Of a DNA stretch of 64,000 nucleotides, positions 15,343-59,612 are shown piece after piece. Origin of the DNA: Rubrivivax sp. (GTDB lineage Bacteria > Pseudomonadota > Gammaproteobacteria > Burkholderiales > Burkholderiaceae_C); contig DAORHX010000001.1 in assembly GCA_035438245.1 (NCBI GenBank), forward strand, positions 6,606 to 70,605. Reading direction: 5' to 3'. The position numbers and the translations under genes are program-made. The stretch's first letter is position 1. Every line of letters starts with the position of its first letter. The notes under the pieces were generated by a model. It made no database searches. It was not told the DNA's origin and worked only from the letters and a program-made list of their open reading frames with translations.

Positions 15343-15356
15343 GTACGCATGTGTAC
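15343..15356. promoter_or_regulatory. Palindromic operator copy 1 (GTACGCATGTGTAC)
   Basis: Divergent intergenic region; identical to the copy at 40552; overlaps a TACTAT -10-like hexamer. Confidence 0.75.
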
Positions 15357-15411
15357 TATATCAAAGTGCCCGCAATTGCAACTCGGGTCGAACCTTGATA
15401 TGGAGTGTTCC

Positions 15412-16422
15412 GTGAGTGACGCAAAGACCCACCGCCAAGTGATCCTGGCAAGCCGACCCGAGGGCATCCCGCAGGCCGAGCACTTCCGTATCGTCGAGGC
15501 GCCGCTGCCGCTGCCCGGCCCGGGGCAGGTGCGGGTGCGCAACCGCTGGCTGTCGGTGGAGCCGGCGATGCGCGGCTGGGTCAATGCCGCGGCCAACTAT
15601 GCCGAGCCGGTTCCGGTCGGTGGCGTGATGCGCTCTTTCGCGGTGGGGCATATCGATTGCTCCAATCACCCGGACTGGGCGGTGGGCACGCCGGTCACCG
15701 GCCTCTTCGGCTGGCAGGAGGCCGCGGTGCTCGACCCAACCCAGATCCAGCGCCGCGTTAACGACGGCGATCTGCCGCTGTCCACCGCGCTGGGCGTGAT
15801 GGGCATCAACGGCGTCACCGCCCACTACGGGCTGCTGCAGATCGGCCGGCCGCAGCCGGGCGACACAGTGGTGGTGTCGACCGCGGCCGGCGCGGTGGGC
15901 TCGGTGGTGGGGCAGATCGCGAAGATCATCGGGTGCCGCAGCATCGGCATCGCCGGCGGCGAGGCCAAGCGCCGCCTGTGCGTCGAGCGCTTCGGCTACG
16001 ACGCTGCGCTGGACTACAAGGCACCTGGCTTCGAGCAGGCGCTGGCTCGGGCCTGCGAGGGCGGCGTGAATGTCTACTTCGACAACACCGCCGGCGCGAT
16101 CAGCGACGCCGCGATGACCCATCTGGCGCCGGGCGCGCGTGTGGTGATCTGCGGCACGGCGTCAGTGGCCAGCTGGCAGCCGGCCCCGCTCGGGCCGAGG
16201 GTGGAGCGGCACCTGTTGGTCAAGCGCGCCAGCATGCAGGGTTTCGTGATCTTCGATCATCCGCAGCACGGTGACGTGGCTCGCGCAGACCTCGGGCGCT
16301 GGATCCGCGAGGACCGGTTGCACTATGTCGAGGAAACACTCGACGGCATCGACCAGGCGCCCGATGCGATCGCCGGGCTGTACCGCGGCGAAAACCTGGG
16401 CAAGCGGCTGATACGCCTTTAG
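15412..16422 (+). CDS. NADP-dependent MDR oxidoreductase (PTGR/CurA/YncB family ene-reductase)
   Basis: RQVILASRPEGIP, LSVEPAMRG, AAGAVGSVVGQIAK, GENLGKRLI. GGAG RBS before GTG 15412. Confidence 0.9.
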   Translation: MSDAKTHRQVILASRPEGIPQAEHFRIVEAPLPLPGPGQVRVRNRWLSVEPAMRGWVNAAANYAEPVPVGGVMRSFAVGHIDCSNHPDWAVGTPVTGLFGWQEAAVLDPTQIQRRVNDGDLPLSTALGVMGINGVTAHYGLLQIGRPQPGDTVVVSTAAGAVGSVVGQIAKIIGCRSIGIAGGEAKRRLCVERFGYDAALDYKAPGFEQALARACEGGVNVYFDNTAGAISDAAMTHLAPGARVVICGTASVASWQPAPLGPRVERHLLVKRASMQGFVIFDHPQHGDVARADLGRWIREDRLHYVEETLDGIDQAPDAIAGLYRGENLGKRLIRL

Positions 16423-16505
16423 CGCTCAAAGCAAATGTGGCTTTGCCACTTTGCTTGACCCCCCACGGGGGGGCGGGCTGGGCGTAGCCTGGCCCTGGGG
16501 GCGCT
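16421..16505. repeat. Multi-hairpin REP-like element or bidirectional terminator between convergent genes
   Basis: AGCAAA-T-GTGGC-TTT-GCCAC-TTTGCT stem (16430-16455), C6-AC-G7 stem, GGGCTGGGC-GTA-GCCTGGCCC stem, all closed by AGCGC...GCGCT. Confidence 0.55.
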
Positions 16506-16507
16506 TT

Positions 16508-16975
16508 TCAGCGTTCGGGCAGTCCCGGCAGCTGCAGCCGGTGGTCGCTGTCGGTGTCGGGCAGCAGCGGGCCGCGGCGGAAGACACCGCTGGCGCGGGC
16601 CACGGTCTTGCCGTCGTAGCGAATCACACCCTGCGAGAAGACCAGGTTCTTCGTCACCTCCAGGATGTCGGCTTCGCCCTGCACCCAATGGCCGAGCGGC
16701 GCGCCGTTCATGAAGTCCAGCTGCAGGCTGATGGTCGGCAGGAACTGCCGCGGGATGTCGGTCTGGTATTGCGCTGCGCTGGACAGCACGATGTCGGCCA
16801 GCAGGCTCAGCATGCCGCCGTGGCAGTTGTTCCCAGGGTTGACCTGGTGCGGCTGCACGACGAAGCCGACCTGCAGATGTGGGTCGTGCCAGCGTGCATA
16901 TAGCTCGGCGCTGTGCGTGGCGAAGGTGCTGCCCAGTTTGACGGGCAGGAAGCCGAGTGGAATCGGATCGGGCAT
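16508..16975 (-). CDS. PaaI-family thioesterase
   Basis: NPGNNCHGGMLSLLAD hot-dog motif. Confidence 0.85.
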   Translation of the reverse strand: MPDPIPLGFLPVKLGSTFATHSAELYARWHDPHLQVGFVVQPHQVNPGNNCHGGMLSLLADIVLSSAAQYQTDIPRQFLPTISLQLDFMNGAPLGHWVQGEADILEVTKNLVFSQGVIRYDGKTVARASGVFRRGPLLPDTDSDHRLQLPGLPER

Positions 16976-16981
16976 GGTGCT

Positions 16982-18223
16982 TCAGAGTCGTGCGGCGATG
17001 GCTTCCCAGGCATCGGCCAGAGCCTCGCGGTGGAAACGGTCGGCGATGGCGATCAGTGCCATCGCGCGCGCGGCCAGTGATAGGCCGCGCAGTTCGGCGA
17101 TGCCGTTTTCGGTAACCACGGCGTCGGCAAGCTGCCGCGGCAGCGTCACCAGGCTCTGCGTCCCGAGTGCCGGCACGATGCGCGAAACCGAGCCGCCCTT
17201 GGCGGTAGCTGGTAGCGCGATCACCAGGCGGCCACCGGGTGAGGCCAGTGCCCCTTGCGCGAAGGCAGGCAGACCGCCGGCGCCAGCCTGGATCACACCA
17301 TTGGTGCGCTCGGCATTGACCTGTCCGAACAGATCGACCTCAACCGCGCCATTCACCGCGATGAAGCGCGGCAACGTGGCAATCAGCGCCGGGTTGTGCG
17401 TGAAGCCCACGTCCTGCAGCTTCAGCTTCGGCAGTACCGCGGCCAGCTCGCGCAGCGCGGGGCCGCCGAGGATCACGCCGGTGTGGATGTCGGCGTCGGG
17501 GTCCATCGCACCGGACTCCCACAGCGCGCTGAAGGCGCCCGGCAGCATGCCGCCGTGGAAACGCAGGTGCCGGTGGCCACACAGCGCATGGGCCATGGCC
17601 ATCGGCACGCCACCGATGCCGAACTGCAGCGTGTCTCCGTCGCGCACCAGCGTCGCGACATGGACGCCGATGCGCGCCTCGAGTTCGCCCGTCGACGCTT
17701 CGGCAAAGTCGTTCAAGGGGGTGTCGGCCTCCACCGCAACGTCGATCTCCGAACGATGCACGCGGAACGTCGACGGTAGGCGCGGCAAGCGCGGGTTGAA
17801 GTGCACGACACGCCGCCGCGCGCGTTTCCACGCCAGTGGCGCGAAGTCCGCGGCCAGCCCCGGCGCGCACCAGCCCTGCGCGTCCGGCGGGCTCAGCTGC
17901 GCAATCACCACATCATAGGGTTCGTCCTCGCGCAGGTGGCGCGCGATGCCCAGGTAGTCCTGGCTCGGCAGCTCGGCGCGTCCCTCGGCCAAGCCGCGGC
18001 GCAGCGCCGCCGACATGAACCAGCCGCGCTGCCGCGCCTGCGGGTGCACCGCCAGATAGTCCGTCTTGTCGATGCCCGGGAACTGCACGCCGGCGAAGGT
18101 CACGCCGCTGGCGCGCTCCGGATCGGCACGCAATTCCTCGGCCAGCAGCGCGGATTCGTTGGACAGTGTCGGCACCCAGATCTTCAGGCCCGGGGCTAGG
18201 ACATCTCTGAGTCGCGCCTTCAT
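16982..18223 (-). CDS. Acetyl-CoA hydrolase/4-hydroxybutyrate CoA-transferase family protein
   Basis: GDTLQFGIGGVP, AVNGAVEVDLFGQVNAE, SRIVP, DAVVTENGIAELRG. Confidence 0.85.
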   Translation of the reverse strand: MKARLRDVLAPGLKIWVPTLSNESALLAEELRADPERASGVTFAGVQFPGIDKTDYLAVHPQARQRGWFMSAALRRGLAEGRAELPSQDYLGIARHLREDEPYDVVIAQLSPPDAQGWCAPGLAADFAPLAWKRARRRVVHFNPRLPRLPSTFRVHRSEIDVAVEADTPLNDFAEASTGELEARIGVHVATLVRDGDTLQFGIGGVPMAMAHALCGHRHLRFHGGMLPGAFSALWESGAMDPDADIHTGVILGGPALRELAAVLPKLKLQDVGFTHNPALIATLPRFIAVNGAVEVDLFGQVNAERTNGVIQAGAGGLPAFAQGALASPGGRLVIALPATAKGGSVSRIVPALGTQSLVTLPRQLADAVVTENGIAELRGLSLAARAMALIAIADRFHREALADAWEAIAARL

Positions 18224-18600
18224 CTTTGTCGGTTCAGCTGCGCTTCGCCACTCAATACTTCGGTGTGCTCCGTGGTGGCACGCAGCGTGTAGTGCGCCTC
18301 GGAGTTGGTCGCGCTGCGCAGCGCGGCCGTCAACTCGATGGCATCGCCTGCCAGTGCCACACCGACGAAGCGCGTGTGCAGGCGCAGCAGCGCATGCGGC
18401 CCAAACTCGCGTGTGAACAGCCGGCCGGCCAACGCCATGCTGAGCATGCCGTGCACCACCGGCTTGTCGAAGCCCGCGCGGCGCGCCACATCCGGGTCCA
18501 AGTGCAGCGGATTGTGGTCACCCGAGGCGGCGGCGAAGAGCGCCAGCTGCAGCGGAGTGACCGGCGCGATCTGCATCCTCAGTTCAGCGGGCCAGCTCAT
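18220..18600 (-). CDS. MaoC-family dehydratase (catalytic subunit)
   Basis: FAAASGDHNPLHLD...VVHGML. Confidence 0.88.
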   Translation of the reverse strand: MSWPAELRMQIAPVTPLQLALFAAASGDHNPLHLDPDVARRAGFDKPVVHGMLSMALAGRLFTREFGPHALLRLHTRFVGVALAGDAIELTAALRSATNSEAHYTLRATTEHTEVLSGEAQLNRQR

Positions 18601-19046
18601 GATCCGATGCGGTTGCGCACGAGGATGGTCTGGGTGCTGCGTGCCACGGCACGGCCAGTGACGCGGTAGTCGGTGTCCACGACGATGAAGCTCAGCGCGC
18701 CGTCTTTCTTGTCGAAGATGCGGTCGATGCGGCGTTGCAGTTCCACGGTGTCGCCCACGTGCACGGGTGCGAGATAGTCGAACTGCTGCTCGGCATGCAG
18801 CACACCGAACAGTGGCACCTGCAGCAGCTGCAGCAGCGCGGCGCTGCTGAAGTGTTCGCCTTCGATCGCCTTCAGGTAGGTCGGCGGCAGCGGGCAGGCC
18901 GCCAGTCCTGCCGACGAGGCCGCGGCAGGATCCCAGTACACCGGGTCGTTCTCGCCCACGGCCTGACAGAAGAGCTTGACACGCCAGGCGTCGATGGGCA
19001 CACGCGTCGGCGGCGTCTCGAAGCCGACCTTGGTGCGGTCGATCAT
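18597..19046 (-). CDS. MaoC N-terminal/FAS1-like dehydratase partner subunit
   Basis: VKLFCQAVGENDPVYWD, PPTY, VLHAEQQFDYLAPVHVGD. Start MIDRTKVG at 19046. Confidence 0.82.
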   Translation of the reverse strand: MIDRTKVGFETPPTRVPIDAWRVKLFCQAVGENDPVYWDPAAASSAGLAACPLPPTYLKAIEGEHFSSAALLQLLQVPLFGVLHAEQQFDYLAPVHVGDTVELQRRIDRIFDKKDGALSFIVVDTDYRVTGRAVARSTQTILVRNRIGS

Positions 19047-20491
19047 CGATTGGCTTGCCAGCTCAGCGGGCCGCCGCTCCAAGCCGGCGCGGCGCCGGCC
19101 AGGCAGGCGGCCACGTCGATGAAGGCCGGATCGCTGTTCTGTGCCCAGGCTGCTGCCAGCTGCGCCTGTTCTTCCAGCGGCCGTCCGCGCAAGGCCGCGA
19201 GGCGGCTGGCCGGGCCGGGCGTGCGCCAGGGCAACGACCACAGGCGCATCGCCAGAGCCGCCATCGCAGCTGCCTGTGCTTCGTTTGCACCGGCGATCTC
19301 CACCACCCGACCGTAGGGCCCCTGCGGCGACAGCACAAGCTGGGCGCCGGCCACGGCATCGGACGCATCGGCGGTAGTGCGCAGCGCGGCGCGATGCACC
19401 GCTCCGGCTCGGTCGATGACTTCGATCGTGTCGATCGGCAGGGCTGCATCGGCCTGTAGCGGCAGATTCAGCCGGCTCAACGCAGCCTGCCAAGCCACGC
19501 GGCCTTCGCTGATCGGTCCGAGGCGCAGGCTTTCCACCGCCACGCCGGCGGGCGGGGCAAGTTCCTTCTCGGCGCGCAACCGCTCCAGGAACAGTGTGCG
19601 TACCATGCGGCCAGCCACCGGGTTGAACATCAGGCGCAGGAAGTTGTTCATCTCCACGGTCGTCGCTTCGGCCAGCGACAGTCGGGCGCCATACAGGACG
19701 CTGTCGACGATCGCCGCATATGCCGGGTAGAGTTCGTAATCCGCGCTCGAGACGCCATGCTTCTCCGCGGCAGCGGCCGACACGTCGTCGCCGGGAGCCG
19801 GCACATCTGCCTGCCCCAGGTGCTTGAACTTCAGCGTCGGGTCGTAGGCGGTGTCATGCAGCGCACGTGCCACGGCCTTGGCTTCGGCCAGCAGTTTGGC
19901 GGCCGGCGCAGCAGCGGACACGATGCCCAGCTTCAGCGCGGTGCCAGGGTCGACCGGCTGGCCGCTGAGCAGCATCTTCATCGCAGGTTCGAAGCCGGCC
20001 AGGCGTGGCAGCCTTTGCGTGCCGCCGGCGCCGGGTAGCAGGCCCCAGCGCACCTCGGGCACGCCCAGTTGCAGCCGCGGGTCGTCGGCCACCAATCGCA
20101 TGCGGCAGGCGAGGGCGAGCTCCAGCCCACCGCCCAGCGCCAGGCCGTTCACTGCGGCGACATAGGGCTTGGCCGACGCTTCCAGGCGCACGAACTGCCG
20201 TCCGAGCCGGCCGCACATCTCGAACATCTGCGCGTGGGTGCGCGTGCGCGCGGCGTCGCAGTAGCCGCGCACCATCTCCAGGTCAGCTCCGGCTAAGAAG
20301 CTGCTCTTGCCGGAGGTGATCACGCAACTGCGAACTCCAGGATCGGCATCGACGCGGTCCATCAGTGCGTCCAGCGCGTCCATCAGCTCGACCGAGAACA
20401 CGTTCATCGTGCGCTCGCCCATGTCGATGGTCGCGACCAGCACGCCGTCGGCGTCCAGCGCGGTGGTGATGGGGCTTGCCACGGCGCTCAA
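19043..20491 (-). CDS. FadJ/FadB-type enoyl-CoA hydratase domain with degenerate C-terminal region
   Basis: SFLAGADL, ALGGGLELALAC, GVPEVRWGLLPGAGGTQRLPRL, YPAYAAI; no GxGxMG NAD-binding motif follows. Confidence 0.85.
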   Translation of the reverse strand: MSAVASPITTALDADGVLVATIDMGERTMNVFSVELMDALDALMDRVDADPGVRSCVITSGKSSFLAGADLEMVRGYCDAARTRTHAQMFEMCGRLGRQFVRLEASAKPYVAAVNGLALGGGLELALACRMRLVADDPRLQLGVPEVRWGLLPGAGGTQRLPRLAGFEPAMKMLLSGQPVDPGTALKLGIVSAAAPAAKLLAEAKAVARALHDTAYDPTLKFKHLGQADVPAPGDDVSAAAAEKHGVSSADYELYPAYAAIVDSVLYGARLSLAEATTVEMNNFLRLMFNPVAGRMVRTLFLERLRAEKELAPPAGVAVESLRLGPISEGRVAWQAALSRLNLPLQADAALPIDTIEVIDRAGAVHRAALRTTADASDAVAGAQLVLSPQGPYGRVVEIAGANEAQAAAMAALAMRLWSLPWRTPGPASRLAALRGRPLEEQAQLAAAWAQNSDPAFIDVAACLAGAAPAWSGGPLSWQANR

Positions 20492-21282
20492 CCCGCGAAC
20501 TTCTTGAAGTCCGGCTTGCGCTTCTCGTTGAACGCGCGCACGCCTTCCTTGGACTCTTCACTCTGGTAGTAGCCCTTGACCGCAGCCACGCCCATGAAGC
20601 TGATGCCGCGGATGTTCTCGCTGTCGGCGTTGAACGAGCGTTTGGCGATGGCGATCGCCGTCGGACTCATCGCGTTGATCTCGGCCGCCCAGGCTTCGCA
20701 CTCGGCATCGAGCTGGTCGTGCGGCACGACCTTGTTCGCCAGGCCCCAGTCCAGCGCCTGCTGCGCCGACACGCGGCGGCAGGTGAACCACATCTCGCGC
20801 GCGCGCTTCTCGCCGACCACGCGCGCGAGGTAGGCGGTGCCGAAGCCCGGATCGACCGAGCCGACCTTCGGGCCGACCTGGCCGAACTGTGCCTTCTCGG
20901 AGGCGATCGTCAGGTCGCAGATCGTCGCGAAGACGTTGCCGCCGCCGATGGCGAAGCCCTGCACGCGGGCGATCACGACCTTGCGGCAGTCGCGGATGGC
21001 GCTTTGCAGTTCCTCGATCGGCAGGCCGACCATGCCGCGCGGACCGTAGAGCCCGTCTTCCGAGAGGTGGACCTTCTGGTCGCCGCCGGTGCAGAAGGCC
21101 TTGTCGCCGGCGCCGCTGAAGATCACGGTGTTGACCGAACGTTCCTCGTCGGCACGCCTAAACGCCAGGATCAGTTCCTCGACGGTCTGGGTGCGGAAGG
21201 CGTTGAAGACCTCCGGACGGTTGATCGTGATGCGGACGGCGTTCTCGCCGACCTCGTAGGTGATGTCCTTGTACTCGGCCAT
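20488..21282 (-). CDS. badI: 2-ketocyclohexanecarboxyl-CoA hydrolase
   Basis: AFCTGGDQ, RGMVGLPIEELQSAIRD, GGGNVFATICDLTIASEKAQFGQVGPKVGSVDPGFGT match the BadI branch of the MenB-like family; adjacent to badH. Confidence 0.88.
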   Translation of the reverse strand: MAEYKDITYEVGENAVRITINRPEVFNAFRTQTVEELILAFRRADEERSVNTVIFSGAGDKAFCTGGDQKVHLSEDGLYGPRGMVGLPIEELQSAIRDCRKVVIARVQGFAIGGGNVFATICDLTIASEKAQFGQVGPKVGSVDPGFGTAYLARVVGEKRAREMWFTCRRVSAQQALDWGLANKVVPHDQLDAECEAWAAEINAMSPTAIAIAKRSFNADSENIRGISFMGVAAVKGYYQSEESKEGVRAFNEKRKPDFKKFAG

Positions 21283-21326
21283 AGTGTGCTCGTTGATGAG
21301 GATGGAGAAGAGGAGGAGATCGGCGT

Positions 21327-22097
21327 TCAGCCGTGCATCGACAGGCCGCCGGAGACGCTGATCGTCTGTCCGGTCATGAAGGCCGCATCGTCGCTGGCCA
21401 GGAAGGCCACCAGTCCGGGGTAGTCGTCGGGCACGCCGATGCGGCCCAGCGGCACCCCCTTGACCATCGCGTCGCGGATCTTCTGGCCGGCCTCGCCGGT
21501 GCCGACGAAGGCGTCCATCGCCGGCGTGTCGGTGGGGCCGGGGCAGACGGTGTTGATGGTCACGTTGGCGCGCGCCAGTTCGCGCGCCAGCGCCTTGCTG
21601 AAGGCAATGGTTGCACCCTTGCAGCCGGAGTACACCACCTCGCCGCTGCTGCCGACACGACCGGCATCCGAGGCGATCTGCACGATGCGGCCGCTCTTGC
21701 GTGCGGCCATGCCCTGCGCCACCGCGTGCGTCATGTGCAACGGGCCGAACCAGTTGATCGCGGTGACCTTTTGCCAGAAGGCCGGCTCGGTTTTCAGGAA
21801 GGGCATCGGCGTGTCCCAGCCGGCGTTGTTGACCAGGATGTCGGTGCCCGCACCCGCCTGCTGCTCGAAGGCCGCGACCGCCGCCGTCACCGCCGCGTAG
21901 TCGGTGATGTCGCATCGGACGGCCAGGGCCTTGCCGCCGGCGGCTTCGATGGCGCTCACCGTCTCGGCGGCGCCGGCTTCGTTGATGTCGAACACGCCGA
22001 CGACGCAGCCTTCGGCCGCGAGGCGGTTGGCGATGGCGCGGCCGATGCCGCTGCCGGCGCCGGTGACGATGGCGGTCTTGCGCTGAAGTCCTCGCAT
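21327..22097 (-). CDS. badH: 2-hydroxycyclohexanecarboxyl-CoA dehydrogenase
   Basis: NNAGWD, IASDAGRVGSSGEVVYSGCKG, VCPGPTDT, SVSGGLSMHG. Confidence 0.86.
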   Translation of the reverse strand: MRGLQRKTAIVTGAGSGIGRAIANRLAAEGCVVGVFDINEAGAAETVSAIEAAGGKALAVRCDITDYAAVTAAVAAFEQQAGAGTDILVNNAGWDTPMPFLKTEPAFWQKVTAINWFGPLHMTHAVAQGMAARKSGRIVQIASDAGRVGSSGEVVYSGCKGATIAFSKALARELARANVTINTVCPGPTDTPAMDAFVGTGEAGQKIRDAMVKGVPLGRIGVPDDYPGLVAFLASDDAAFMTGQTISVSGGLSMHG

Positions 22098-22128
22098 GTC
22101 TGCTTTCTCCTTGGGAATGAAATGGGTG

Positions 22129-23343
22129 TCAGGCGCCGAGCCGACCGACGATCGACACGGCGCAGACGTTCTGGTGCGGATGGCCGCCGAGGTTGTGCGT
22201 CAGGCCAAGGTCCACGCGCGGCAGCTGGCGGCGTTCGGCGCGGCCGTGGATCTGCAGCCAGATCTCGTAGACCATGCGCAGCCCAGAGGCGCCGATCGGG
22301 TGGCCGAAGCACTTCAGCCCGCCGTCGGGCTGCACCGGCAGCGCGCCGTCGCGGTCGAACACGCCGTCGAGCACGTCATGGATGGCTCGCCCCGGTGCGC
22401 TGAACTGCAGGTCTTCCATCAACACGGCTTCGGTGATCGAGAAGCAGTCGTGCACCTCGGCCATCTGGATCTGCCGCCGCGGGTCGGCGAGACCGGCCGA
22501 CGCATAGGCGCGGGCACCGGCCTCGCGCGCGGTCTGGATGCTCGCACCGTCCCATGCCGTGGGGCCGCTGAAGCTTTGCTCCTCGCCGTTGCTGACCGAT
22601 ACCTCCAGCGCCTTGATCGTCACCACCTCGCGGTCCGGGTGCAGGGCCTTGGCGATCTCGGGCGTGGTCAGGATCGCGCAGGCCGCACCGTCGCTGACGC
22701 CGCAGCAGTCGTACAGGCCCAGCGGCGCGGCGATGGTCGCGGCTTTCAGCACGTCGTCTTCGGTGATCGCATTGCGCAGGTGCGCCTTCGGGTTCAGTGC
22801 CGCATTGGCGTGGCTCTTCACCGAGACATGGGCCATCGCGCGCTTCAGGTCAGGCAGCGCGACACCGTGCTTCGCCGCATAGGCCGAGGCCAGTTGCGCG
22901 AAGGCGCCGGGCGCCGTGCTGTTGGGCAGCCACAGGTCGTTGGCGACGCCGCGCGTGCGCACTGGCAGGCCGCCATAACCGGTGTCCTTGAGCTTCTCGA
23001 CACCGAGCGCCAGCACGATGTCATAGGCGCCGGCCGCCACCGCGTAGGCCGCGGCACGCAGCGCCTCGGTGCCGGTGGCGCAGGCGTTCTCGACCCGTGT
23101 GGCAGCGATGCGCGGCAGGCGCAGCGCCGCGGCCAGCGGCCCCGCGGTCTTGCCGACGTTGTTCTCTTCCAGGCACACGCCGAGCCAGGCGGCCTCGATC
23201 TGCTTGATGCCGATGCCGGCGTCGGCCTTCGCTTCCTTGAAGGCTTCGAGCATCAGCTCGTCGGCGCCCATGTCCCAGCGCTCGCCGAAGCGCGAGCAGC
23301 CCATACCGAGGATCGCGACCTTGTCGCGGATGCCGCTGGCCAT
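22129..23343 (-). CDS. SCP2-type thiolase (acetyl-CoA acetyltransferase family)
   Basis: RVENACATG (Cys), EVHDCFSITE, GHPIGASG, HNLGG. Confidence 0.9.
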   Translation of the reverse strand: MASGIRDKVAILGMGCSRFGERWDMGADELMLEAFKEAKADAGIGIKQIEAAWLGVCLEENNVGKTAGPLAAALRLPRIAATRVENACATGTEALRAAAYAVAAGAYDIVLALGVEKLKDTGYGGLPVRTRGVANDLWLPNSTAPGAFAQLASAYAAKHGVALPDLKRAMAHVSVKSHANAALNPKAHLRNAITEDDVLKAATIAAPLGLYDCCGVSDGAACAILTTPEIAKALHPDREVVTIKALEVSVSNGEEQSFSGPTAWDGASIQTAREAGARAYASAGLADPRRQIQMAEVHDCFSITEAVLMEDLQFSAPGRAIHDVLDGVFDRDGALPVQPDGGLKCFGHPIGASGLRMVYEIWLQIHGRAERRQLPRVDLGLTHNLGGHPHQNVCAVSIVGRLGA

Positions 23344-24815
23344 CAGTGCTTCTCCCCGTTGTCTGTGGCCGCATCGCGCAGTGGCGTGGCCTTCCAGAAA
23401 TAGCGGCGGAAGCCGCGGTTGCGGTCGAACTCCTTGACGCGGTAAACCATGCGCAACGGCAGACCGACCTTCAACTCGCCGGGGTCGGTGTCGGCGAACT
23501 CCATCAGCACGCGGCCGCCGCCTTCAAAATCGACATGCCCGAACTGGAAGGGCGGGTGCGGCGTATAGGCGAGAAAGTCACTGGTGTGCGAAAGCACCCG
23601 CGCCGGCGCATCGGCCAGGCTTAGGCTGGTCTGCTGACCTTCGGCGCGGCATTCGGGGTTGACGCACAGCGCACTGCGCGGGAACTGCACCGTGCCGCAC
23701 GCGCTGCAGCGTCCGCCTTCGAATCGCGCCATGCGCGGCAGGTCACGCCAAGCGGCGGTGAGTGCGGTCTTGTTGTCCATCTCGGCACGCATGCCCCATT
23801 CCAGATCGATCTGTCCGGTGAAGGACAGGTACTTCAGGTAGCTCGTCTCCGGCTTGCCCGGCTCAGGCTCGGTGCCGGGGCAAGGCATGTCGGTCCGCCG
23901 CAGCAGAAGCGCATCGCAGCCGCTGCCGAAGGCAGCCACGAGGATCAGTGCGCCGGGCCGCGCGGCGCGCAGCGCCACGTCCAGCATCGCCAGCGGCTGG
24001 GCGGCGCCCAGGTCGCCGCCATCTTCATGTCCTGGGGACACCAGTGCGGCCGGAGCGATGCCGAGCTTCTTCGCCATCGCCTCGTTGATCTTCGGCAGTG
24101 GCGCAGGCATCGCGAAATGCGCGACGTCGCCGGCAGCGACGCCGGCGTCAGCCAGGCAACGGCGCAGCGTGTCCACGGCGAACTTCATATAGCCCTCGTC
24201 GCGCACCCAGCGTTCTTCCCAGCCGTAGTCGTGGGCCTGGCCGGTTTCGCGGAAATGGTCGACCAGGTCGGCATGCACGCTGCGATGGGCGACGAACTCG
24301 GCGATCGCGGGCCCGGCACCGATCAACACACCGGCCGCGCCGTCGCCTTGGATCATCTCCTGCGTGCTCGCTGGCCGGGGGATGCGTCGCTCTGCTGCCA
24401 GCAGCAGCGTCGAACTGCCCGCAGGCCGGCGCAGCGCCGCGGCCAGTTCGCTCAACCCGCAGCGTGTGCTCGACGCGACGTCCCGCAACACGGTATCGTC
24501 ATCGAGTCCGATCGCTGCGGCGACGATGCCGGCATTCAGCCGGTCGGCAAAGGGCAAGGTCGTCGACGCCAGCGTCAGCTCACAGGGACCGGAGCCGGGT
24601 TGCAGTTGAGGCAGGCGGCGTGCTGCTTCCACCGCCATCGTCACGCAGTCCTCATCCCAGCTCGCGATTGCGCGCCGGCCCTTGGCCAGGCCACGCAGGC
24701 CAGGCGCCATCCAACGGTGCTGCGCGGCCACCTCGCTGCGTTCGAGACGCAGGCGGGGCAGGTACCGTGTGGTGGCGATCAGGCCGGGGGGCTCTCCTGG
24801 GGTGCGTGTGTTCAT
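23343..24815 (-). CDS. HMG-CoA synthase-like domain fused to DUF35 (Zn-ribbon + OB-fold)
   Basis: YLPRLRL...DEDCVTMAVEAAR; C-terminal CSACGTVQFP...CVNPEC and OB-fold ending RRYFWKATP; coupled to the thiolase. Confidence 0.85.
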   Translation of the reverse strand: MNTRTPGEPPGLIATTRYLPRLRLERSEVAAQHRWMAPGLRGLAKGRRAIASWDEDCVTMAVEAARRLPQLQPGSGPCELTLASTTLPFADRLNAGIVAAAIGLDDDTVLRDVASSTRCGLSELAAALRRPAGSSTLLLAAERRIPRPASTQEMIQGDGAAGVLIGAGPAIAEFVAHRSVHADLVDHFRETGQAHDYGWEERWVRDEGYMKFAVDTLRRCLADAGVAAGDVAHFAMPAPLPKINEAMAKKLGIAPAALVSPGHEDGGDLGAAQPLAMLDVALRAARPGALILVAAFGSGCDALLLRRTDMPCPGTEPEPGKPETSYLKYLSFTGQIDLEWGMRAEMDNKTALTAAWRDLPRMARFEGGRCSACGTVQFPRSALCVNPECRAEGQQTSLSLADAPARVLSHTSDFLAYTPHPPFQFGHVDFEGGGRVLMEFADTDPGELKVGLPLRMVYRVKEFDRNRGFRRYFWKATPLRDAATDNGEKH

Positions 24816-24863: not shown

Positions 24864-24877
24864 ATACGCTAGCGAAC
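24864..24877. promoter_or_regulatory. Palindromic operator copy 2 (ATACGCTAGCGAAC)
   Basis: Divergent region between the HMGS-DUF35/badHI operon and the SDR-BKACE operon. Confidence 0.6.
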
Positions 24878-25861: not shown

Positions 25862-25875
25862 AGGAGCACGCAGCC

Positions 25876-26808: not shown

Positions 26809-26822
26809 GTTCGCATCCTTAC
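26809..26822. promoter_or_regulatory. Degenerate operator copy 3 (GTTCGCATCCTTAC), possible marR autoregulation site
   Basis: In the 48-bp gap upstream of marR; weaker match to the consensus. Confidence 0.4.
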
Positions 26823-48142: not shown

Positions 48143-48157
48143 GGAAGCATTGCACCC

Positions 48158-49033: not shown

Positions 49034-49035
49034 CG

Positions 49036-49620
49036 ATGAGGCTTACGCTGGTGCGCCACGGACGGCCGGATGAAGGCAATGCGGCGCGGCCGCATGACCC
49101 ACCGCTGAGGGCAGACGGCCAACGCCAGGCCGAGGCGGTAGCGAGGCTGCTGGCAGACGAGGGCGTCACATCGATCGTCGCCAGTCCGTTGTTGCGCGCT
49201 CACGAGACCGCGCTGCCGTTGGCTGGGAGGCTCGGACTCCCGATCCGCACCGTCGAGGGCTGGGCCGAAGCCGACCGGCACGTAGCCCACTATCGCAGCA
49301 CCGAGACGCTGCGTGCGCTGGGTGATGCCGAATGGCAACTCTTTCTCGACGATCCGGTGCTCTATCTCGGTGGGGACCCACAGGTTTTTCGCGGCACCGT
49401 GCTCGATGCCTTGCTCGCTGCGGCGGAAGGCGACGAGAAAGCACATGTCGCGGTGTTTACCCATGGCTTGCCGATCAATGTCACGCTGGCGTGTGTGCTG
49501 GGGTTGGAGAAGATCGTGCACTTCCGTCCTGGCTATGGCTCGGTCACCCGGCTTCTCGCGCGCGCCGGGCGCTTCGGCGTGGTCAGCGTCAACGAAAGCG
49601 CGCACTTCAGACTGTCATGA
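49036..49620 (+). CDS. Histidine phosphatase family protein
   Basis: LVRHG, SPLLRAHETA, VFTHG. Confidence 0.88.
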   Translation: MRLTLVRHGRPDEGNAARPHDPPLRADGQRQAEAVARLLADEGVTSIVASPLLRAHETALPLAGRLGLPIRTVEGWAEADRHVAHYRSTETLRALGDAEWQLFLDDPVLYLGGDPQVFRGTVLDALLAAAEGDEKAHVAVFTHGLPINVTLACVLGLEKIVHFRPGYGSVTRLLARAGRFGVVSVNESAHFRLS

Positions 49621-50645
49621 CCCAACTCATCGACGACGCCGCGCTCGCGCCGCGCATCAGGCGCTACCTGTCCGACCAAGTCGGCCACCCGGTGCACGTG
49701 GGCACCATCCGGCGCTTCCCGGTGGGCTTCTCGTGGCTGACCTATGCGGTGCCGGTGGACGGCCTCGACGAGGCTGGCCCGCGCGAGCTGATCTTGCGCC
49801 TCGGGCCGGACTACGGGCTGTTCGCTCCCTACAGCGCATTGCCGCAGGTGCTGGCGATGCGCTCGCTCGAGGGCAGCGGCGTGGCGGTGCCGCGCGCCTT
49901 CTGGCACGACGACGACCCGACAATCCTGGGCGCGCCCTTCATGTTCAGCGACAAGGCCGAAGGTGAGGCCGTCGTGCCCTGGGTGTCGCCGAGCGAGCCG
50001 CCGCTTGAGGAAGGCCTACGCATCCGGCTCGCGCACCAGTTCATCGATTGCCTGGCCGCGCTGCATCGCGTCGACTGGCGCCAGCAGCCCATCGCCGCGA
50101 TGGCCGGCGACGTCGACGAGCGCAACGCTGCGCTGCGCAGCGTGCAGACTTGGGAGGCGTTGATCCAGCGTTGGCAGATGCGGCCTTACCCGCTGGCCGA
50201 CTGGGGTCTGCGTTGGCTGAAGGCGCATTGCCCGACGGCACCGCGTGTCACGATCGTGCACGGCGACTATCGCACCGGCAACTTCCTGCAAACCGATGGC
50301 GCCATCACCGCCATTCTCGACTGGGAACTGGTGCACCTGGGCGACCCGCACGAAGACCTGGCCTGGGCCAGCATGCCCATGTACAAGGGCGGCACGCCCT
50401 ATATCGGCCGTCTGGCTGAACCGGAGCTGTTCTACGGGCGTTATGCCGACAAAGCGGGCATCGAGGTGTCGATGGACGCCGTGCGCTACTACCAGGTGTT
50501 CTCGCTGCTGAAGCTGGCTGCTACACACATGGCGGCGGCGCGTTGCTTCGAGGAAGGCCGCTTCAACGACATGCGCATGCCGGCGATGGGCAGCCAGATC
50601 GCGACCTGCCTTCGTCAGATGGACAAACTGATCGAATCCGCATGA
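49617..50645 (+). CDS. APH-fold phosphotransferase (LvaA-like)
   Basis: GFSWLTY, LILRLGP, VHGDYRTGNF, ILDWELVHLGDPHEDLAW. Confidence 0.9.
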   Translation: MTQLIDDAALAPRIRRYLSDQVGHPVHVGTIRRFPVGFSWLTYAVPVDGLDEAGPRELILRLGPDYGLFAPYSALPQVLAMRSLEGSGVAVPRAFWHDDDPTILGAPFMFSDKAEGEAVVPWVSPSEPPLEEGLRIRLAHQFIDCLAALHRVDWRQQPIAAMAGDVDERNAALRSVQTWEALIQRWQMRPYPLADWGLRWLKAHCPTAPRVTIVHGDYRTGNFLQTDGAITAILDWELVHLGDPHEDLAWASMPMYKGGTPYIGRLAEPELFYGRYADKAGIEVSMDAVRYYQVFSLLKLAATHMAAARCFEEGRFNDMRMPAMGSQIATCLRQMDKLIESA

Positions 50646-50721
50646 CGACCCCCATGTTCACACTATTCGCTGCCCGCCGAGGAGGTTCGATCCTCTTTGG
50701 GGACACCCTGCAGGAGGCCGA

Positions 50722-51192
50722 ATGAACAACTCCTTTCCCCGCCTGATCGATGGCATGTGCGCCACGCTGCGTGCCGAGGTGCTGAGTCGTCTCGACGATG
50801 AATTCGCGCGCGGCCAGGTGTTCGGTGTCATCAATCTGCTGAACACCTTCAAGGTGCGCGCCGACTGGTCGGCCGGCTTCCTGCTCGAGCAGATCGCGGC
50901 GCAGCAGCGTGCGCTGGACGCGATCCGGCCGCTGGTCGGTCTCGCATTTCCCGACGAAGCACTGCCTCGGCCGGTCCCGGCGGGCGAGCTGCTTGCACGA
51001 CGCGATGCAGGCAACCGCACGTTGGCCGAAGTGATGGCCTGGCTCGACGGCGACGGCGTGCAGCTACCGCCGGAGCGACGGGCCGAGGTCGAGGCGCAGC
51101 TGCGGCAGGCAATGCGTGCCGAGGTCGAACTCGAGCTGAAGAACTCGCCGCGACCCCTGTTTGCCGAGATGTCGAGCGGTCGCGAAGGCTGA
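50722..51192 (+). CDS. Small helical protein, possible LvaB-like kinase partner
   Basis: 156 aa, GGAGG RBS, directly after the kinase gene; function inferred from position only. Confidence 0.65.
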   Translation: MNNSFPRLIDGMCATLRAEVLSRLDDEFARGQVFGVINLLNTFKVRADWSAGFLLEQIAAQQRALDAIRPLVGLAFPDEALPRPVPAGELLARRDAGNRTLAEVMAWLDGDGVQLPPERRAEVEAQLRQAMRAEVELELKNSPRPLFAEMSSGREG

Positions 51193-51256: not shown

Positions 51257-51293
51257 TTGACGATGTACTGATGCATATCGTACACTAGCGAAC
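51257..51293 (+). promoter_or_regulatory. Sigma70-like promoter overlapped by operator copy 8 (GTACACTAGCGAAC, 51280-51293)
   Basis: TTGACG at 51257-51262, 18-bp spacer, TACACT at 51281-51286 inside the palindrome. Confidence 0.68.
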
Positions 51294-56771: not shown

Positions 56772-58331
56772 TCAGGATGTCGCGCAGGTGTAGTTTGCCG
56801 CGTCGTTAACGTCACCGCTTCCTTTGTAGCGCGGGAAAGTCGGATAGCGGCACAGCGGCCGCGACAGGACCGTCGCTCCCGTGCTGCTGTTGACCCGCTT
56901 GGTCGTCAGATCGCCGGGGGCCGTGTTCTGCGTCACCCATGCATCAAGCGCCGGCAGCATAGAAGTCGATTGGTCCGCGCCCGTACCACCGCCGCAATGC
57001 TGGACGCCAGGCGATACATAGAGCCGGGAGAAGCTGTCCATGGCAGCCTGTCCGCCCGCTGCCGTCTTTACGGCATCGTAGTAGTCGATCGTGCTCTGCA
57101 ACGGCACCGCCGCATCGGCCGCGCCGTGCCACAACAGCAGCTTCGCGCCCGTTAGTCTGAACGAAGTCATGTTGGGATCGGTGACGTCGATCTCGTCGGC
57201 CATTGCCTGCACGATGGCCGCGTTGGCCTTGAAATCGTAGTCGACCCAGTTTGCCGCGGGGTCGCCGCCGAGCAGATTCTTTACCACCGACGCCCCGAAT
57301 AGTCCGGTGATGGTCGAAGCAGGGTTGCCGATGATCCAGCTGGCCCAACCACCAGGCACCGCGATCTCGCCCAGCAGGGCAAACGGCGAGTGGCTCGTGA
57401 CATTTGGTGTGCCGGCACCGCCAGTCATGCGCGAGGTCGCAGACGCGACGACATTGATCTGCGCATCCGAGAGGCAACTGTCGCTTTCGTCGCCGCCGGA
57501 CGGACAGCGCAGCACGCTGGCGTCGTAGCGACAGGCAGCGATGTTCGAGATGATGCCGTCGCTCACGCCGTCCAGGGCGTCGCAGGAAGCCATCAGCGAC
57601 GACGACAACAACGTTAACTTGGCGCTGGTGAAGGTGCTGCCGGGAACTCGGGCGAGCAATCGTGCTGTGCGCTGGTAGTTTTCGATCGGAGCCACGAACT
57701 TCGCGGGCGCCTTCGCGATCACGCCGTCGAACATGGTCGGGAATCGCAGGGCGGTCATCAACCCTTCGCGACCACCGTTCGAGCAGCCTTCGAAGTAAGA
57801 GCGCGTAGGTGCGGCGCCGTAGGCCGATTCGGTGATCTGCTTGGCCGCCGCCGCCACCGTCGGTACCGACAGTCGCGAGAAAAGCCGAAGGGCCACAGGA
57901 TCACCGAGCGCGAACGAGCCGTCCAGAGCCGACGTCCCGGTGTGGCCGCTGTCGCTGGACACGTCGACGTACCCTTGGTTCAGGGCCGAGTTGTCTGCGG
58001 CAGGGATGGATCCGTTGAAGCCGCCTCCGCCCCCATAGTGCAGCTTGCCGTTCCACGACACGGGCAAGCGCATCTCGAAGTTGAGTTTCGGGGCGATCTG
58101 TGCCGTGACCTTGCAGTACTCGGGCACCGCCGGCGCAGCGCCCGAGGCAGCCGCTGCAGGCACCATTGCCGTTGCCGAGATCGCAGCGCCACCAATGGAC
58201 TGGGTGGCCAAGCCGGCGCAGGTGCTTGCGCTGACGGTTGGCACAGGCTCGTCATCGTCGCTGCCGCATGCCGTCAGGCCTATGGCGACCACAGCCCCTG
58301 CGCACCATGCGATCGTCGTCTTTTGCTTCAT
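56772..58331 (-). CDS. Tannase/feruloyl esterase family lipoprotein
   Basis: Lipobox GLTA-C; GCSNGG, WHGAAD, GVQHCGGG (CS-D-HC motif); SRPLCRYP. Confidence 0.9.
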   Translation of the reverse strand: MKQKTTIAWCAGAVVAIGLTACGSDDDEPVPTVSASTCAGLATQSIGGAAISATAMVPAAAASGAAPAVPEYCKVTAQIAPKLNFEMRLPVSWNGKLHYGGGGGFNGSIPAADNSALNQGYVDVSSDSGHTGTSALDGSFALGDPVALRLFSRLSVPTVAAAAKQITESAYGAAPTRSYFEGCSNGGREGLMTALRFPTMFDGVIAKAPAKFVAPIENYQRTARLLARVPGSTFTSAKLTLLSSSLMASCDALDGVSDGIISNIAACRYDASVLRCPSGGDESDSCLSDAQINVVASATSRMTGGAGTPNVTSHSPFALLGEIAVPGGWASWIIGNPASTITGLFGASVVKNLLGGDPAANWVDYDFKANAAIVQAMADEIDVTDPNMTSFRLTGAKLLLWHGAADAAVPLQSTIDYYDAVKTAAGGQAAMDSFSRLYVSPGVQHCGGGTGADQSTSMLPALDAWVTQNTAPGDLTTKRVNSSTGATVLSRPLCRYPTFPRYKGSGDVNDAANYTCATS

Positions 58332-58403
58332 CGGTGTCTCCAAGAATGTCTAGTGCCTCCGAGTGGAGGGACAAGGCACGATAGAGATCGATGCATCACA
58401 CGT

Positions 58404-58452
58404 CTGCCCCCCGGGGGGGTTGGTGCGAACCCGCAGTTGCCCGCGGCGCACC
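58404..58452. repeat. REP-like element
   Basis: CTGCCCCCCGGGGGGGTT then a GGTGCG...CGCACC stem; 15/18 identical to 50670-50687. Confidence 0.4.
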
Positions 58453-58457
58453 CTCGG

Positions 58458-59567
58458 TCAGATCGCCGGGTGTTCCTGCACTTCGGCGTACTTTGGGTAG
58501 CCTTTGGCTACGCCGTATTCGATGATGCCGTAGCCCACCTGGTCGCCATCGCGCACCTCGATGACCTGGTCGGCCAGCGTGCGGATCTTGCGGCGAGTCG
58601 CGGGATCCTGCAGGTCCCAGGCCTCGTGCGCGGTGAAAAGCTTGCCCTTGTCGTCGCCGTGGAACCAACCGTCGAGGCCACCGTAGAGCCCGCCCTTCAG
58701 GTAGTAGCGTGTCGGCAGCGCGCGCACCTGCACCGTGCGGCGTTCGCCGCTGGCGAAAGTCAGCTCGAAGCTGGCATGGTCCAGGCTCTGGCCCAGCGGG
58801 TCGGCGAGCCACTTGGCTTCGTGCTGCACCGTCACCAGCTGGTCGCGTCCCGAAGCCTTGCTGCCGAGCGGCCGCACCTGCTCGCCGCTGAGGTAGATCA
58901 GGTCGCCCGGCCCGCGCTCCTTGAAGAAGATGACCAGGCCATGGTCCTTGAACTGCGCGGTGGTCCAGCAGAAGAAGAATGGGGGGTAGAAGGTCAGCGG
59001 CGGCGCGGTCTCGTCGCTGCGCATCTCGGCGCGCACGCCCCAGCTGTGGTCGCGCTGGCCGAGCCAGGAGTCCACCGCCATGCGTCGACCGTCGAACTCC
59101 AACCAGCCGGTGTAACGGCCCATCTGCTGGGCACGGTACATGTGCTCGGTGACGCGGCCGTCCCGCCGGCGCAGGTGGCCGGCCTCCTCGTGCGGGTTCA
59201 GCGTGGCGTGAAACTCCAGTTCGAAGCGCAGGCCGGAATCGTTCTCGGAGAGCGACAGCGTGTGCCGCTTCAGCCCTTCGATGACGCGGATCGACAGTGG
59301 CCCGATCGTCGTATTCAGTGGATCCGGCCGCAGCCGGCGGCTGGCGCGAAAGTTCCACTGGCGTCCCGGCACCGCCACGCCGGCGAAGCCGTCCATCACG
59401 TTGCGGTTCGGGTGATAGCCCAGGCCGATGTCGAAGATCACATCGCCGCCGGGCGCGGGGTGGCCGGTGTACCAGAGCCGCTCCATCCACGCCGGATCAC
59501 TGTTGTCGATCTGGTCGAAAGTCGTGGGCAACTGGTGGCCGATGAGGTCGTCTTGAGGGGTCAGCAT
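58458..59567 (-). CDS. Hypothetical beta-rich protein
   Basis: 369 aa with clean codon bias; ERLWY, YHPNRNVMDGF, GQRDHSWGVR motifs; operator upstream. Confidence 0.8.
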   Translation of the reverse strand: MLTPQDDLIGHQLPTTFDQIDNSDPAWMERLWYTGHPAPGGDVIFDIGLGYHPNRNVMDGFAGVAVPGRQWNFRASRRLRPDPLNTTIGPLSIRVIEGLKRHTLSLSENDSGLRFELEFHATLNPHEEAGHLRRRDGRVTEHMYRAQQMGRYTGWLEFDGRRMAVDSWLGQRDHSWGVRAEMRSDETAPPLTFYPPFFFCWTTAQFKDHGLVIFFKERGPGDLIYLSGEQVRPLGSKASGRDQLVTVQHEAKWLADPLGQSLDHASFELTFASGERRTVQVRALPTRYYLKGGLYGGLDGWFHGDDKGKLFTAHEAWDLQDPATRRKIRTLADQVIEVRDGDQVGYGIIEYGVAKGYPKYAEVQEHPAI

Positions 59568-59598
59568 GATCAGCGGGAATTCCAGGATGGCAATATTA

Positions 59599-59612
59599 GT
59601 ACATTAGCGTAC
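59599..59612. promoter_or_regulatory. Palindromic operator copy 9 (GTACATTAGCGTAC)
   Basis: Divergent 77-bp gap between the hypothetical gene and the crotonase pair. Confidence 0.75.

What the first reader, a model, noticed from the sequence alone, without database searches (positions are those of the whole stretch)
15343..59612. Nine copies of a 14-bp palindromic operator tie the cluster into one probable MarR regulon
Seen in sequence: GTACGCATGTGTAC (15343 and 40552, identical), ATACGCTAGCGAAC (24864), GTTCGCATCCTTAC (26809, weak), GTACTCTAGCGTAC (27376), GTACGGTAGCGAAC (40616), GTACACTAGTGTAA (46943), GTACACTAGCGAAC (51280), GTACATTAGCGTAC (59599). Consensus GTACRCTAGYGWAC. All are intergenic, at all four divergent promoter regions and ahead of aliA, aliB, the ABC operon and marR. 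Several overlap -10-like hexamers, the position expected for a repressor. Known: MarR repressors of CoA pathways (BadR, CouR, FerC) are released by acyl-CoA thioesters. Inference: the MarR at 26854 represses about 50 genes through this site and senses an alicyclic acyl-CoA. I do not recognise the motif as a described one.
Basis: partly seen in the sequence, partly recalled or inferred. Interest (0 to 1): 0.8.

Follow-up and report, generated by a model that had tools for sequence, protein, structure and literature searches.

The report
MarR operator for terpenoid-acid degradation island
A real 22-base palindrome sits in front of nearly every operon of a large gene cluster and travels with one MarR-type regulator gene across many bacteria; it is likely the switch by which that regulator keeps off a pathway predicted to break down cyclic plant terpene acids, an ordinary kind of control whose site we did not find described.

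Summary
All nine sites are real and intergenic. They are the core of a ~22-bp palindrome, TAT-N-GTACRCWWGYGTAC-N-ATA. The motif is cluster-specific and tracks the MarR at 26854. 52 of 59 orthologous marR loci carry it, against 0 of 19 distant-MarR loci. In the genus, 11 of 11 genomes with the MarR have ≥3 exact sites, against 1 of 152 without. A de novo search upstream of marR in other genomes recovers it without using the window. Three more sites extend the regulon: 23 bp past the window end, and two on contig C8 (alcohol/aldehyde dehydrogenases; a cumate-type dioxygenase with a CymR-like box). The cluster is not the cyclohexanecarboxylate bad-ali pathway. aliA/aliB/badH/badI fall below equivalog cut-offs and there is no BadR operator. 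The ring hydrolase is 85% identical to Castellaniella defragrans MrcE, in mrcHGFED gene order, and the MarR is 53% identical to that monoterpene island's uncharacterised CDM25292. Best reading: a SlyA-like MarR autorepressor of perillate-type (4-substituted cyclohexene) acid catabolism. Binding, repression and the effector (CoA ester or free acid) are untested. New member of a known kind; moderately interesting as a candidate regulator and biosensor for monoterpene catabolism.

The parts
15343..15356 (.). Operator core GTACGCATGTGTAC between divergent maoC (15294,-) and curA-like oxidoreductase (15412,+)
   Evidence: site at this position in 5 of 5 other clusters
24864..24877 (.). Operator core ATACGCTAGCGAAC between divergent OB-fold/thiolase/mrc-like operon (24815,-) and SDR (24947,+)
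   Evidence: 5 of 5
26809..26822 (.). Operator core GTTCGCATCCTTAC directly after a conserved TAGAAT (-10-like), 31 bp before marR: predicted autoregulatory site
   Evidence: 3 of 5 at >=13 bits
26854..27324 (+). MarR-family regulator, 156 aa, SlyA-like; 53% identical to C. defragrans CDM25292; predicted cognate repressor
27376..27389 (.). Operator core GTACTCTAGCGTAC before the AliA-like acyl-CoA ligase
   Evidence: 4 of 5
40552..40565 (.). Operator core GTACGCATGTGTAC, divergent qor/SDR region, site 1
40616..40629 (.). Operator core GTACGGTAGCGAAC, divergent qor/SDR region, site 2
   Evidence: (two sites in 4 of 5 other clusters, one in the fifth)
46943..46956 (.). Operator core GTACACTAGTGTAA before the AliB-like acyl-CoA dehydrogenase
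   Evidence: 5 of 5
51280..51293 (.). Operator core GTACACTAGCGAAC containing the -10 (TACACT) of a TTGACG-18-TACACT promoter, before the ABC transporter
   Evidence: 5 of 5
59599..59612 (.). Operator core GTACATTAGCGTAC between divergent Rv3169-family gene and enoyl-CoA hydratases
   Evidence: 5 of 5
4668..15294 (-). Predicted target operon: MaoC hydratase, CitE-like lyase, two acyl-CoA dehydrogenases, 2,4-dienoyl-CoA reductase-like SDR, TctC, ETF b/a, IcmF (last four not found in the five compared clusters)
15412..16422 (+). Predicted target: CurA-like NADPH oxidoreductase
16508..24815 (-). Predicted target operon: OB-fold protein, thiolase, MrcD-like SDR, MrcE-like ring hydrolase (20488-21282), MrcF-like hydratase, MrcG/H-like MaoC proteins, acetyl-CoA hydrolase/transferase, thioesterase
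24947..26805 (+). Predicted target: SDR and beta-keto acid cleavage enzyme (NF053538 above cut-off)
27448..37481 (+). Predicted target: AliA-like ligase and enoyl-CoA hydratase, followed by an accessory lipid cassette (hydrolase, GPAT, HAD-acyltransferase, GpsA, WS/DGAT, hydrolase)
37633..40531 (-). Predicted target operon: quinone oxidoreductase, MFE-2-type hydratase, PanE-like reductase
40640..46898 (+). Predicted target operon: two SDRs, acyl-CoA dehydrogenase, APH-type kinase, 3-hydroxyacyl-CoA dehydrogenase, CoA transferase III
46991..51192 (+). Predicted target operon: AliB-like acyl-CoA dehydrogenase, SDR, histidine phosphatase, APH-type kinase, unknown 156 aa
51321..55793 (+). Predicted target: Liv-type ABC transporter
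56772..59567 (-). Predicted target: Rv3169-family protein, then tannase/feruloyl-esterase family (accessory)
59645..61212 (+). Predicted target: two enoyl-CoA hydratase-family proteins
61232..63997 (-). Predicted target: acyl-CoA ligase and binding protein; its site ATACACTAGCGCAC lies 23 bp past the window end (G000:C1:70628)
   Evidence: 4 of 5

Best explanation
The palindrome lies before nearly every operon of the cluster and travels with the MarR gene at 26854, so it is likely the operator through which that MarR dimer represses itself and a pathway predicted to degrade cyclic monoterpenoid (perillate-type) acids. Shown: the site, its 22-bp form TAT-N-GTACRCWWGYGTAC-N-ATA, its position at 12 promoter regions in this genome, and its co-occurrence with this MarR clade. 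Inferred from MarR-family knowledge: recognition helices read the 14-bp core, wings read the AT-rich flanks, and occupancy of the -10/+1 region blocks RNA polymerase (about 85% that this MarR is the binder). Inferred from homology: the targets take up a 4-substituted cyclohexene/cyclohexane acid, ligate it to CoA, and hydrate, oxidise and open the ring (MrcF/D/E type) before beta-oxidation; side branches on contig C8 would supply the acid from the alcohol and aldehyde and handle the aromatic analogue cumate (about 60-65%). Untested: the inducer, most likely the first CoA thioester such as perillyl-CoA (about 55%), otherwise the free acid.
For: Site at >=15 bits in 52 of 59 orthologous marR loci (106 sites in 911 kb) against 0 of 19 distant-MarR loci (321 kb). 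Genus of 163 other genomes: 11 of 11 with the MarR have 3-7 exact matches to RTACRBTAGYGHAC; of 152 without, 18 have one, one has two, one has three, and the latter five hits have no cluster genes beside them. 37 of 40 equivalent promoter regions in five other clusters carry a site. De novo palindrome search on 58 marR-upstream regions of other genomes gave GTACGCATGCGTAC; its PWM put 8 window sites in the top 10 genome hits. The site stays before marR when neighbours change (L020, L035, L045). Flanks not used in training are conserved (A 78%, T 68%; 134 sites). The recognition-helix region GKVA(V/I)GGLIDRL is nearly invariant among close orthologues. The window LuxR was not found in 12 of 12 MarR-bearing genomes; no other regulator is shared by the five clusters. 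Motif also beside 49-60% identical MarRs in related clusters: Tistrella 8 sites, L141, L144, L147, L152. Pathway: ring hydrolase 85% to MrcE CDM25251, in one clade with it (99/96) apart from BadI; gene order mrcH-G-F-E-D, maoC-citE-ACD and ligase-ECH as in PMC4109377 Table 1; MarR 53% to CDM25292. C8 dioxygenase in 7 of 11 MarR genomes against 1 of 152 (63% only), a site before 8 of 8, beside a CymR-type box; C8 GMC oxidoreductase in 10 of 11 against 1 of 152.
Against: No binding or expression data. MarR and cluster are inherited together, so co-occurrence cannot formally separate this MarR from an unlinked factor. G105 has cluster genes and three sites but no MarR orthologue was found; its contig breaks inside the SDR that normally precedes marR. 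7 of 59 orthologue loci had no site at >=15 bits. At 50-60% MarR identity the motif fades: Azoarcus 2 sites, Sphingopyxis 1, Diaphorobacter, Novosphingobium and Paraburkholderia PGU19 none at >=17 bits. C. defragrans DNA could not be fetched, so the motif was not tested in the island itself; CDM25292 lies in a sister clade, not the window's clade, and that island has three MarRs. 32 of 36 ring hydrolases from orthologue loci form a sister clade only 69-75% identical to MrcE, so the substrate may differ. The MrcE reaction is itself a prediction in PMC4109377. A site lay within 1.5 kb of the GMC gene in only 2 of 12 other loci. The CoA-contacting Arg36/Arg38 of R. jostii CouR map to T41/S43 here.
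Confidence: 0.7

Rival explanations
1. Same MarR and operator, but the pathway serves other substituted alicyclic acids (4-alkyl- or 4-hydroxy-cyclohexanecarboxylates, naphthenic acids), or several substrates, rather than monoterpenoids.
For: Most orthologous clusters carry the sister ring hydrolase (69-75% to MrcE). The cluster holds modules not listed in the C. defragrans island (two APH-type kinases, Rv3169 family, tannase family). The AliA-like ligase could not be compared with GeoC.
Against: The window's own hydrolase is in the MrcE clade; mrc gene order is kept; a cumate-type dioxygenase is co-regulated.
Confidence: 0.17
2. BadR-like regulon for cyclohexanecarboxylate, induced by cyclohexanecarboxyl-CoA or 2-ketocyclohexanecarboxyl-CoA.
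For: Best NCBIfam hits of four genes are aliA, aliB, badH and badI; BadR is a MarR (PMC9795900).
Against: All four are below cut-off (705/792, 551/575, 335/431, 393/468). The BadR operator is CAATnnATTG, absent from the window. 0 of 8 bad-ali-type loci carry this motif. A BadI above cut-off is encoded elsewhere in the genome (C248, 528/468).
Confidence: 0.05
3. The site is bound by another factor (the window LuxR, a GntR/FadR or TetR, or an unlinked regulator), and marR is only one of its targets.
For: GT...AC palindromes are typical of GntR operators (recalled); one cluster (G151) has a GntR; marR has a site upstream like any target.
Against: LuxR not found in 12 of 12 genomes; the G151 GntR has only a 37% homologue in this genome; the TetR is missing from 3 of 8 dioxygenase loci that keep the site; sites are restricted to cluster promoters and do not cluster in MarR-lacking genomes.
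Confidence: 0.07
4. Chance, or just back-to-back -10 promoter elements.
For: The core holds TAnnnT hexamers on both strands.
Against: Almost absent from about 965 kb of other non-coding DNA; present at non-divergent promoters; recovered de novo in other genomes.
Confidence: 0.01

Closest known systems
BadR (R. palustris; Aromatoleum sp. CIB), PMC9795900
   Same: MarR repressor of a CoA-dependent alicyclic ring-cleavage pathway with aliA/aliB/badH/badI homologues
   Different: Operator CAATnnATTG, not this motif; five-gene pathway against about 40-55 genes; target genes here miss the bad-ali cut-offs; the MarR beside a plasmid badI gene is only 36% identical over 80 aa
Monoterpene island of Castellaniella defragrans 65Phen (mrcA-H, geoC; MarR CDM25292), PMC4109377
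   Same: MrcE 85% identical, mrcHGFED order, maoC-citE-ACD, hypothetical-thiolase-acetyl-CoA hydrolase, ETF, ligase-ECH; MarR 53% identical
   Different: No regulator or operator is characterised in that paper; ctm, ldi, geoA/geoB and the RND pump are not among the window's annotated genes (rest of genome not searched); extra ABC, kinase, lipid and dioxygenase modules here
SlyA/RovA (PDB 3Q5F)
   Same: Closest solved structure by sequence (E 2e-15); short palindromic core with central W-W (SlyA operator recalled, not from a call)
   Different: About 30% identity; base-reading residues S62/V64/R65 align to A72/G74/G75; local catabolic repressor rather than global virulence regulator
CouR / FerC, PMC4737184
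   Same: MarR repressors of CoA-dependent catabolism released by an acyl-CoA thioester
   Different: Distant (E 1.6e-8 and 2e-6); hydroxycinnamate pathway; Arg36/Arg38 not conserved here
CymR and cmt operon (P. putida F1, B. xenovorans LB400), PMC5224996
   Same: C8 promoter has ACAAACAGAC-N6-GTCTGAAAGT beside a TetR and Rieske dioxygenase genes
   Different: TetR family; here the promoter also carries the MarR site; identity to CmtAb was not tested

Membership tests
MarR family | MarR winged-helix domain | tested here: met
   PF12802/PF01047 above cut-off; best PDB match SlyA
MarR family | Palindromic operator at its own promoter | tested here: met
   Site conserved before marR orthologues and recovered de novo; sequence evidence only
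MarR family | Binds the operator, represses, and is released by a ligand | not testable with these tools
   Needs EMSA or reporter assay
BadR regulon (bad-ali) | Operator CAATnnATTG | tested here: not met
   0 matches in window; five CAAN4TTG matches, none at the promoter sites
BadR regulon (bad-ali) | aliA, aliB, badH, badI equivalogs | tested here: not met
   All four below TIGR cut-offs; ring hydrolase outside the badI-annotated clade
BadR regulon (bad-ali) | CHC-CoA or 2-keto-CHC-CoA as effector | not testable with these tools
   Experiment needed
mrc monoterpene ring-cleavage cluster | MrcE orthologue | tested here: met
   85% to CDM25251; same clade, 99/96
mrc monoterpene ring-cleavage cluster | mrcH-G-F-E-D gene order | tested here: met
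   By annotation and via the Azoarcus KH32C relatives named in the paper (45, 46, 40, 89, 71% identity); accession matching inferred from gene order
mrc monoterpene ring-cleavage cluster | GeoC perillate-CoA ligase, MrcA-C, CtmAB | not tested
   Sequences not obtained; ligase-ECH pairing matches only by annotation
mrc monoterpene ring-cleavage cluster | Growth on or induction by perillate | not testable with these tools
   Uncultured genome; experiment needed
CouR-type CoA-sensing MarR | Arg36/Arg38 CoA-phosphate contacts | tested here: inconclusive
   Map to T41/S43 via SlyA T30/T32, with invariant R42 between; the paper notes that R. palustris CouR and the Sphingobium SYK-6 homologue also lack them
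CymR/cmt locus (contig C8) | ACAAACAGAC-N6-GTCTGTTTGT box before a cumate dioxygenase | tested here: inconclusive
   Left arm exact, right arm 7 of 10; dioxygenase not compared with CmtAb

The most novel reading that the evidence does not exclude
This MarR clade is the uncharacterised master repressor of oxygen-independent monoterpene ring cleavage across beta- and alpha-proteobacteria, including CDM25292 of C. defragrans. It senses perillyl-CoA and, with a CymR-like TetR, jointly gates an aerobic cumate branch, giving one 22-bp signature by which p-menthane catabolic genes can be found in genomes and a ready biosensor for cyclic monoterpenoid acids.
Probability: 0.3. Interest if true: 0.6.

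Novelty: new member of a known kind. Interest (0 to 1): 0.42.

Why it matters
MarR repression of a CoA-dependent catabolic cluster is a familiar design, so this would not surprise a specialist in kind. Its value is practical. It names a testable regulator-operator pair for mrc-type monoterpene ring cleavage, for which the defining paper lists MarR genes but no regulation. It delimits the pathway by a sequence signature and pulls in unlinked genes (alcohol and aldehyde dehydrogenases, a cumate-type dioxygenase, Rv3169-family and kinase genes of unknown role). It shows the pathway is patchily spread in Comamonadaceae and Sphaerotilaceae (11 of 163 genomes in this genus). It also offers a candidate natural sensor for cyclic monoterpenoid acids, a class for which PMC12980060 resorts to engineering CymR.

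Tried and rejected
A loose pattern over 41 relatives was too noisy (23 of 41 matched). A metagenome scan with MrcE alone found nothing. A search of 400 genomes of the order found no MrcE-clade gene besides the window's, so C. defragrans DNA was never examined. The single-sequence AlphaFold model (pLDDT 68) added nothing and was not taken further. The one RNA run (share 0.09) held a relative at about 89% identity with flat contig depth and says nothing on expression. Sigma-70 scans showed no enrichment. Earlier scan notes returned nothing. Literature: six exact 14-mers gave 0 papers; searches on BadR/MarR operators, Castellaniella/mrc/perillyl-CoA and Comamonadaceae MarR regulons listed no description of this regulator. 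Subscription journals, RegPrecise and supplementary tables were not searched. Genome hits C26:14935, C658:25/C197:22 (identical contig ends) and C170, C27 were rejected as chance or unresolved: they fall below the gap in the 22-bp ranking. LuxR, GntR and BadR readings were rejected as above. No complex prediction was run because ligand binding cannot be scored.
Full report
Observation. All nine 14-mers are at the coordinates given. With corrected start codons all lie between genes: four divergent regions (15294/15412, 24815/24947, 40531/40640 with two sites, 59567/59645) and four unidirectional starts (marR, the AliA-like ligase, the AliB-like dehydrogenase, the ABC operon). The window is C1:6606-70605 of a fragmented 4.7-Mb genome whose closest marR relatives come from Rubrivivax-labelled assemblies. 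A PWM from the nine sites ranks eight in the top nine genome hits, with leave-one-out scores of 15.6-21.4 bits, and 9.7 for 26809. Only 2 hits reach 14 bits in 964,631 ORF-masked bases of other contigs, and column-permuted palindromic matrices give 0.56 window hits on average (max 8 in 300 permutations) against 9.

The site is longer than reported. In 134 sites from orthologous loci the flanks, which were not in the training matrix, are conserved: TAT-N-GTACRCWWGYGTAC-N-ATA, with A 78% and T 68% at the inner flank positions. A short core with AT-rich flanks fits wing contacts of MarR dimers (general knowledge). A 22-bp matrix from 100 distinct orthologue sites (picked with the window matrix, so not independent) ranks exactly 12 sites on top of this genome: the nine, one 23 bp past the window end before the ligase at 63997, and two on contig C8; the twelfth scores 18.1 and the next 16.3. 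Still, a conserved TAGAAT directly precedes the marR site and the 51280 site contains the -10 of a TTGACG-18-TACACT promoter.

Which regulator. 52 of 59 loci with a 65-84% identical MarR have a site of at least 15 bits, against 0 of 19 loci with distant MarRs; L068 (49%, no site) was in neither group. Among 163 other genomes of the genus, 11 have the MarR and all 11 have 3-7 exact matches; of 152 without, 18 have one, one has two and one has three, and those five hits lie away from cluster genes. The pattern was designed after seeing orthologue sites, and several handles are the same contigs as loci, so these sets are not independent; kinship also inflates counts. In five extended clusters 37 of 40 equivalent promoter regions carry a site. 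The least circular test, a de novo palindrome search on 58 marR-upstream regions of other genomes, returned GTACGCATGCGTAC and placed 8 window sites in the top 10 genome hits: seven of the nine plus one at 51265; 24864 ranked 24th and 40616 was outside the top 25. The window LuxR was not found in 12 MarR-bearing genomes, and unmatched ORFs of the five clusters held only one GntR and one TetR, the GntR without an orthologue here. One genome, G105, has cluster genes and three sites but no MarR hit; its contig ends inside the gene that normally precedes marR, so it is inconclusive. With MarRs at 49-60% identity the motif persists in Tistrella (8 sites) and four metagenome loci, is sparse in Azoarcus (2) and Sphingopyxis (1), and is absent at threshold in three others.

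What is regulated. Four genes have bad-ali best hits but all miss the cut-offs. BadR's operator is CAATnnATTG (PMC9795900, passages read), which does not occur in the window; eight bad-ali-type loci lack the present motif, and this genome has a BadI above cut-off elsewhere. The ring hydrolase is instead 85% identical to MrcE CDM25251 of Castellaniella defragrans and 89.6% to its Azoarcus KH32C relative, and groups with them (99/96) apart from badI-annotated proteins. Table 1 of PMC4109377 (parts 2-4 of 6 and passages read) shows the same blocks: mrcH-G-F-E-D, hydratase-citrate lyase-dehydrogenase, hypothetical-thiolase-acetyl-CoA hydrolase-ETF, ligase-hydratase, and three MarR genes. One of these, CDM25292, is 53% identical to the window MarR and sits in a sister clade. 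In that paper mrcF and mrcC mutants fail on limonene, but the MrcE reaction is a prediction and no regulation was studied. The two C8 sites fit the theme. One lies between a GMC oxidoreductase/aldehyde dehydrogenase pair and an ABC transporter. The other lies before a Rieske dioxygenase, next to ACAAACAGAC-N6-GTCTGAAAGT, close to the CymR box given in PMC5224996 (passages read). The dioxygenase occurs in 7 of 11 MarR genomes and in one of 152 others at only 63%, has a site in 8 of 8 loci by one or the other matrix, and shares a contig with the island in G063. The GMC gene occurs in 10 of 11 against 1 of 152 but has a nearby site in only 2 of 12 other loci. Against a firm substrate call, 32 of 36 hydrolases from orthologue loci form a sister clade at 69-75% identity to MrcE, and GeoC and CmtAb were not compared.

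Mechanism. The MarR dimer likely occupies the -10/+1 regions and represses itself and about 40 conserved genes (about 55 here with accessory genes). A pathway metabolite would release it. By analogy with BadR, CouR and FerC the first CoA thioester is the best guess, but the nearest solved relative is SlyA, and the CoA-contacting arginines of R. jostii CouR are not conserved, a test that the same paper shows is not decisive (PMC4737184, passages read). Binding, repression and effector are all untested.

Novelty. The design is a known kind. The motif was not found in the open full-text library, nor a characterised regulator for this cluster type (listings seen). Subscription journals, RegPrecise and supplementary tables were not searched and could hold it. 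Verdict: observation confirmed, regulon well supported by comparison, pathway reassigned from cyclohexanecarboxylate to mrc type; new member of a known kind, interest 0.42.

Noticed in passing
G000:C8:16700-16800 (L002:8733-8790): One promoter carries both a CymR-type box and the MarR site. The TetR and the box are missing in 3 of 8 orthologous loci that keep the MarR site, suggesting optional double control of the dioxygenase branch.
   Followed up: partly
window 29900-37481: Lipid cassette (hydrolase, GPAT, HAD-acyltransferase, GpsA, WS/DGAT, hydrolase) sits after the ligase here, directly before marR in L020, L035 and L045, and partly in L141; it might store terpenoid acyl groups as wax esters (untested).
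   Followed up: partly
window 42205-44510 and 49033-51192: Two APH-type kinases paired with acyl-CoA dehydrogenases, a phosphatase and a small unknown protein recall the lva/ACAD10-11 4-hydroxyacyl-CoA module (recalled, not tested).
   Followed up: no
window 20488-21282: The ring hydrolase belongs to the MrcE clade while the closest clusters (e.g. L009, MarR 84% identical) carry the sister clade, hinting at replacement of this gene and a possible shift of substrate.
   Followed up: partly
window 51265-51278: A second, weaker site-like sequence lies 15 bp before 51280; it scores 19.1 with the de novo matrix and below 13 with the pooled one.
   Followed up: partly
G000:C248, C18, C124: Further BadI (above and at cut-off) and AliB-like genes lie outside the island, with no CAATnnATTG box and no MarR site.
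   Followed up: partly
G000:C76:2780-4015: A second, 60% identical Rieske dioxygenase with extradiol dioxygenase and SDR, without the site.
   Followed up: no
window 660-2210: Transposase (DDE_Tnp_1 family) at the left edge of the island; C1 is 65-71% G+C against 69.7% for the genome.
   Followed up: no
G065:C32, G065:C7, G111, L063: Some genomes carry two or three paralogues of this MarR (52-76% identity) beside partial clusters.
   Followed up: no
window 58458-59567: Rv3169-family protein of unknown function is kept in all five compared clusters with a site upstream.
   Followed up: no
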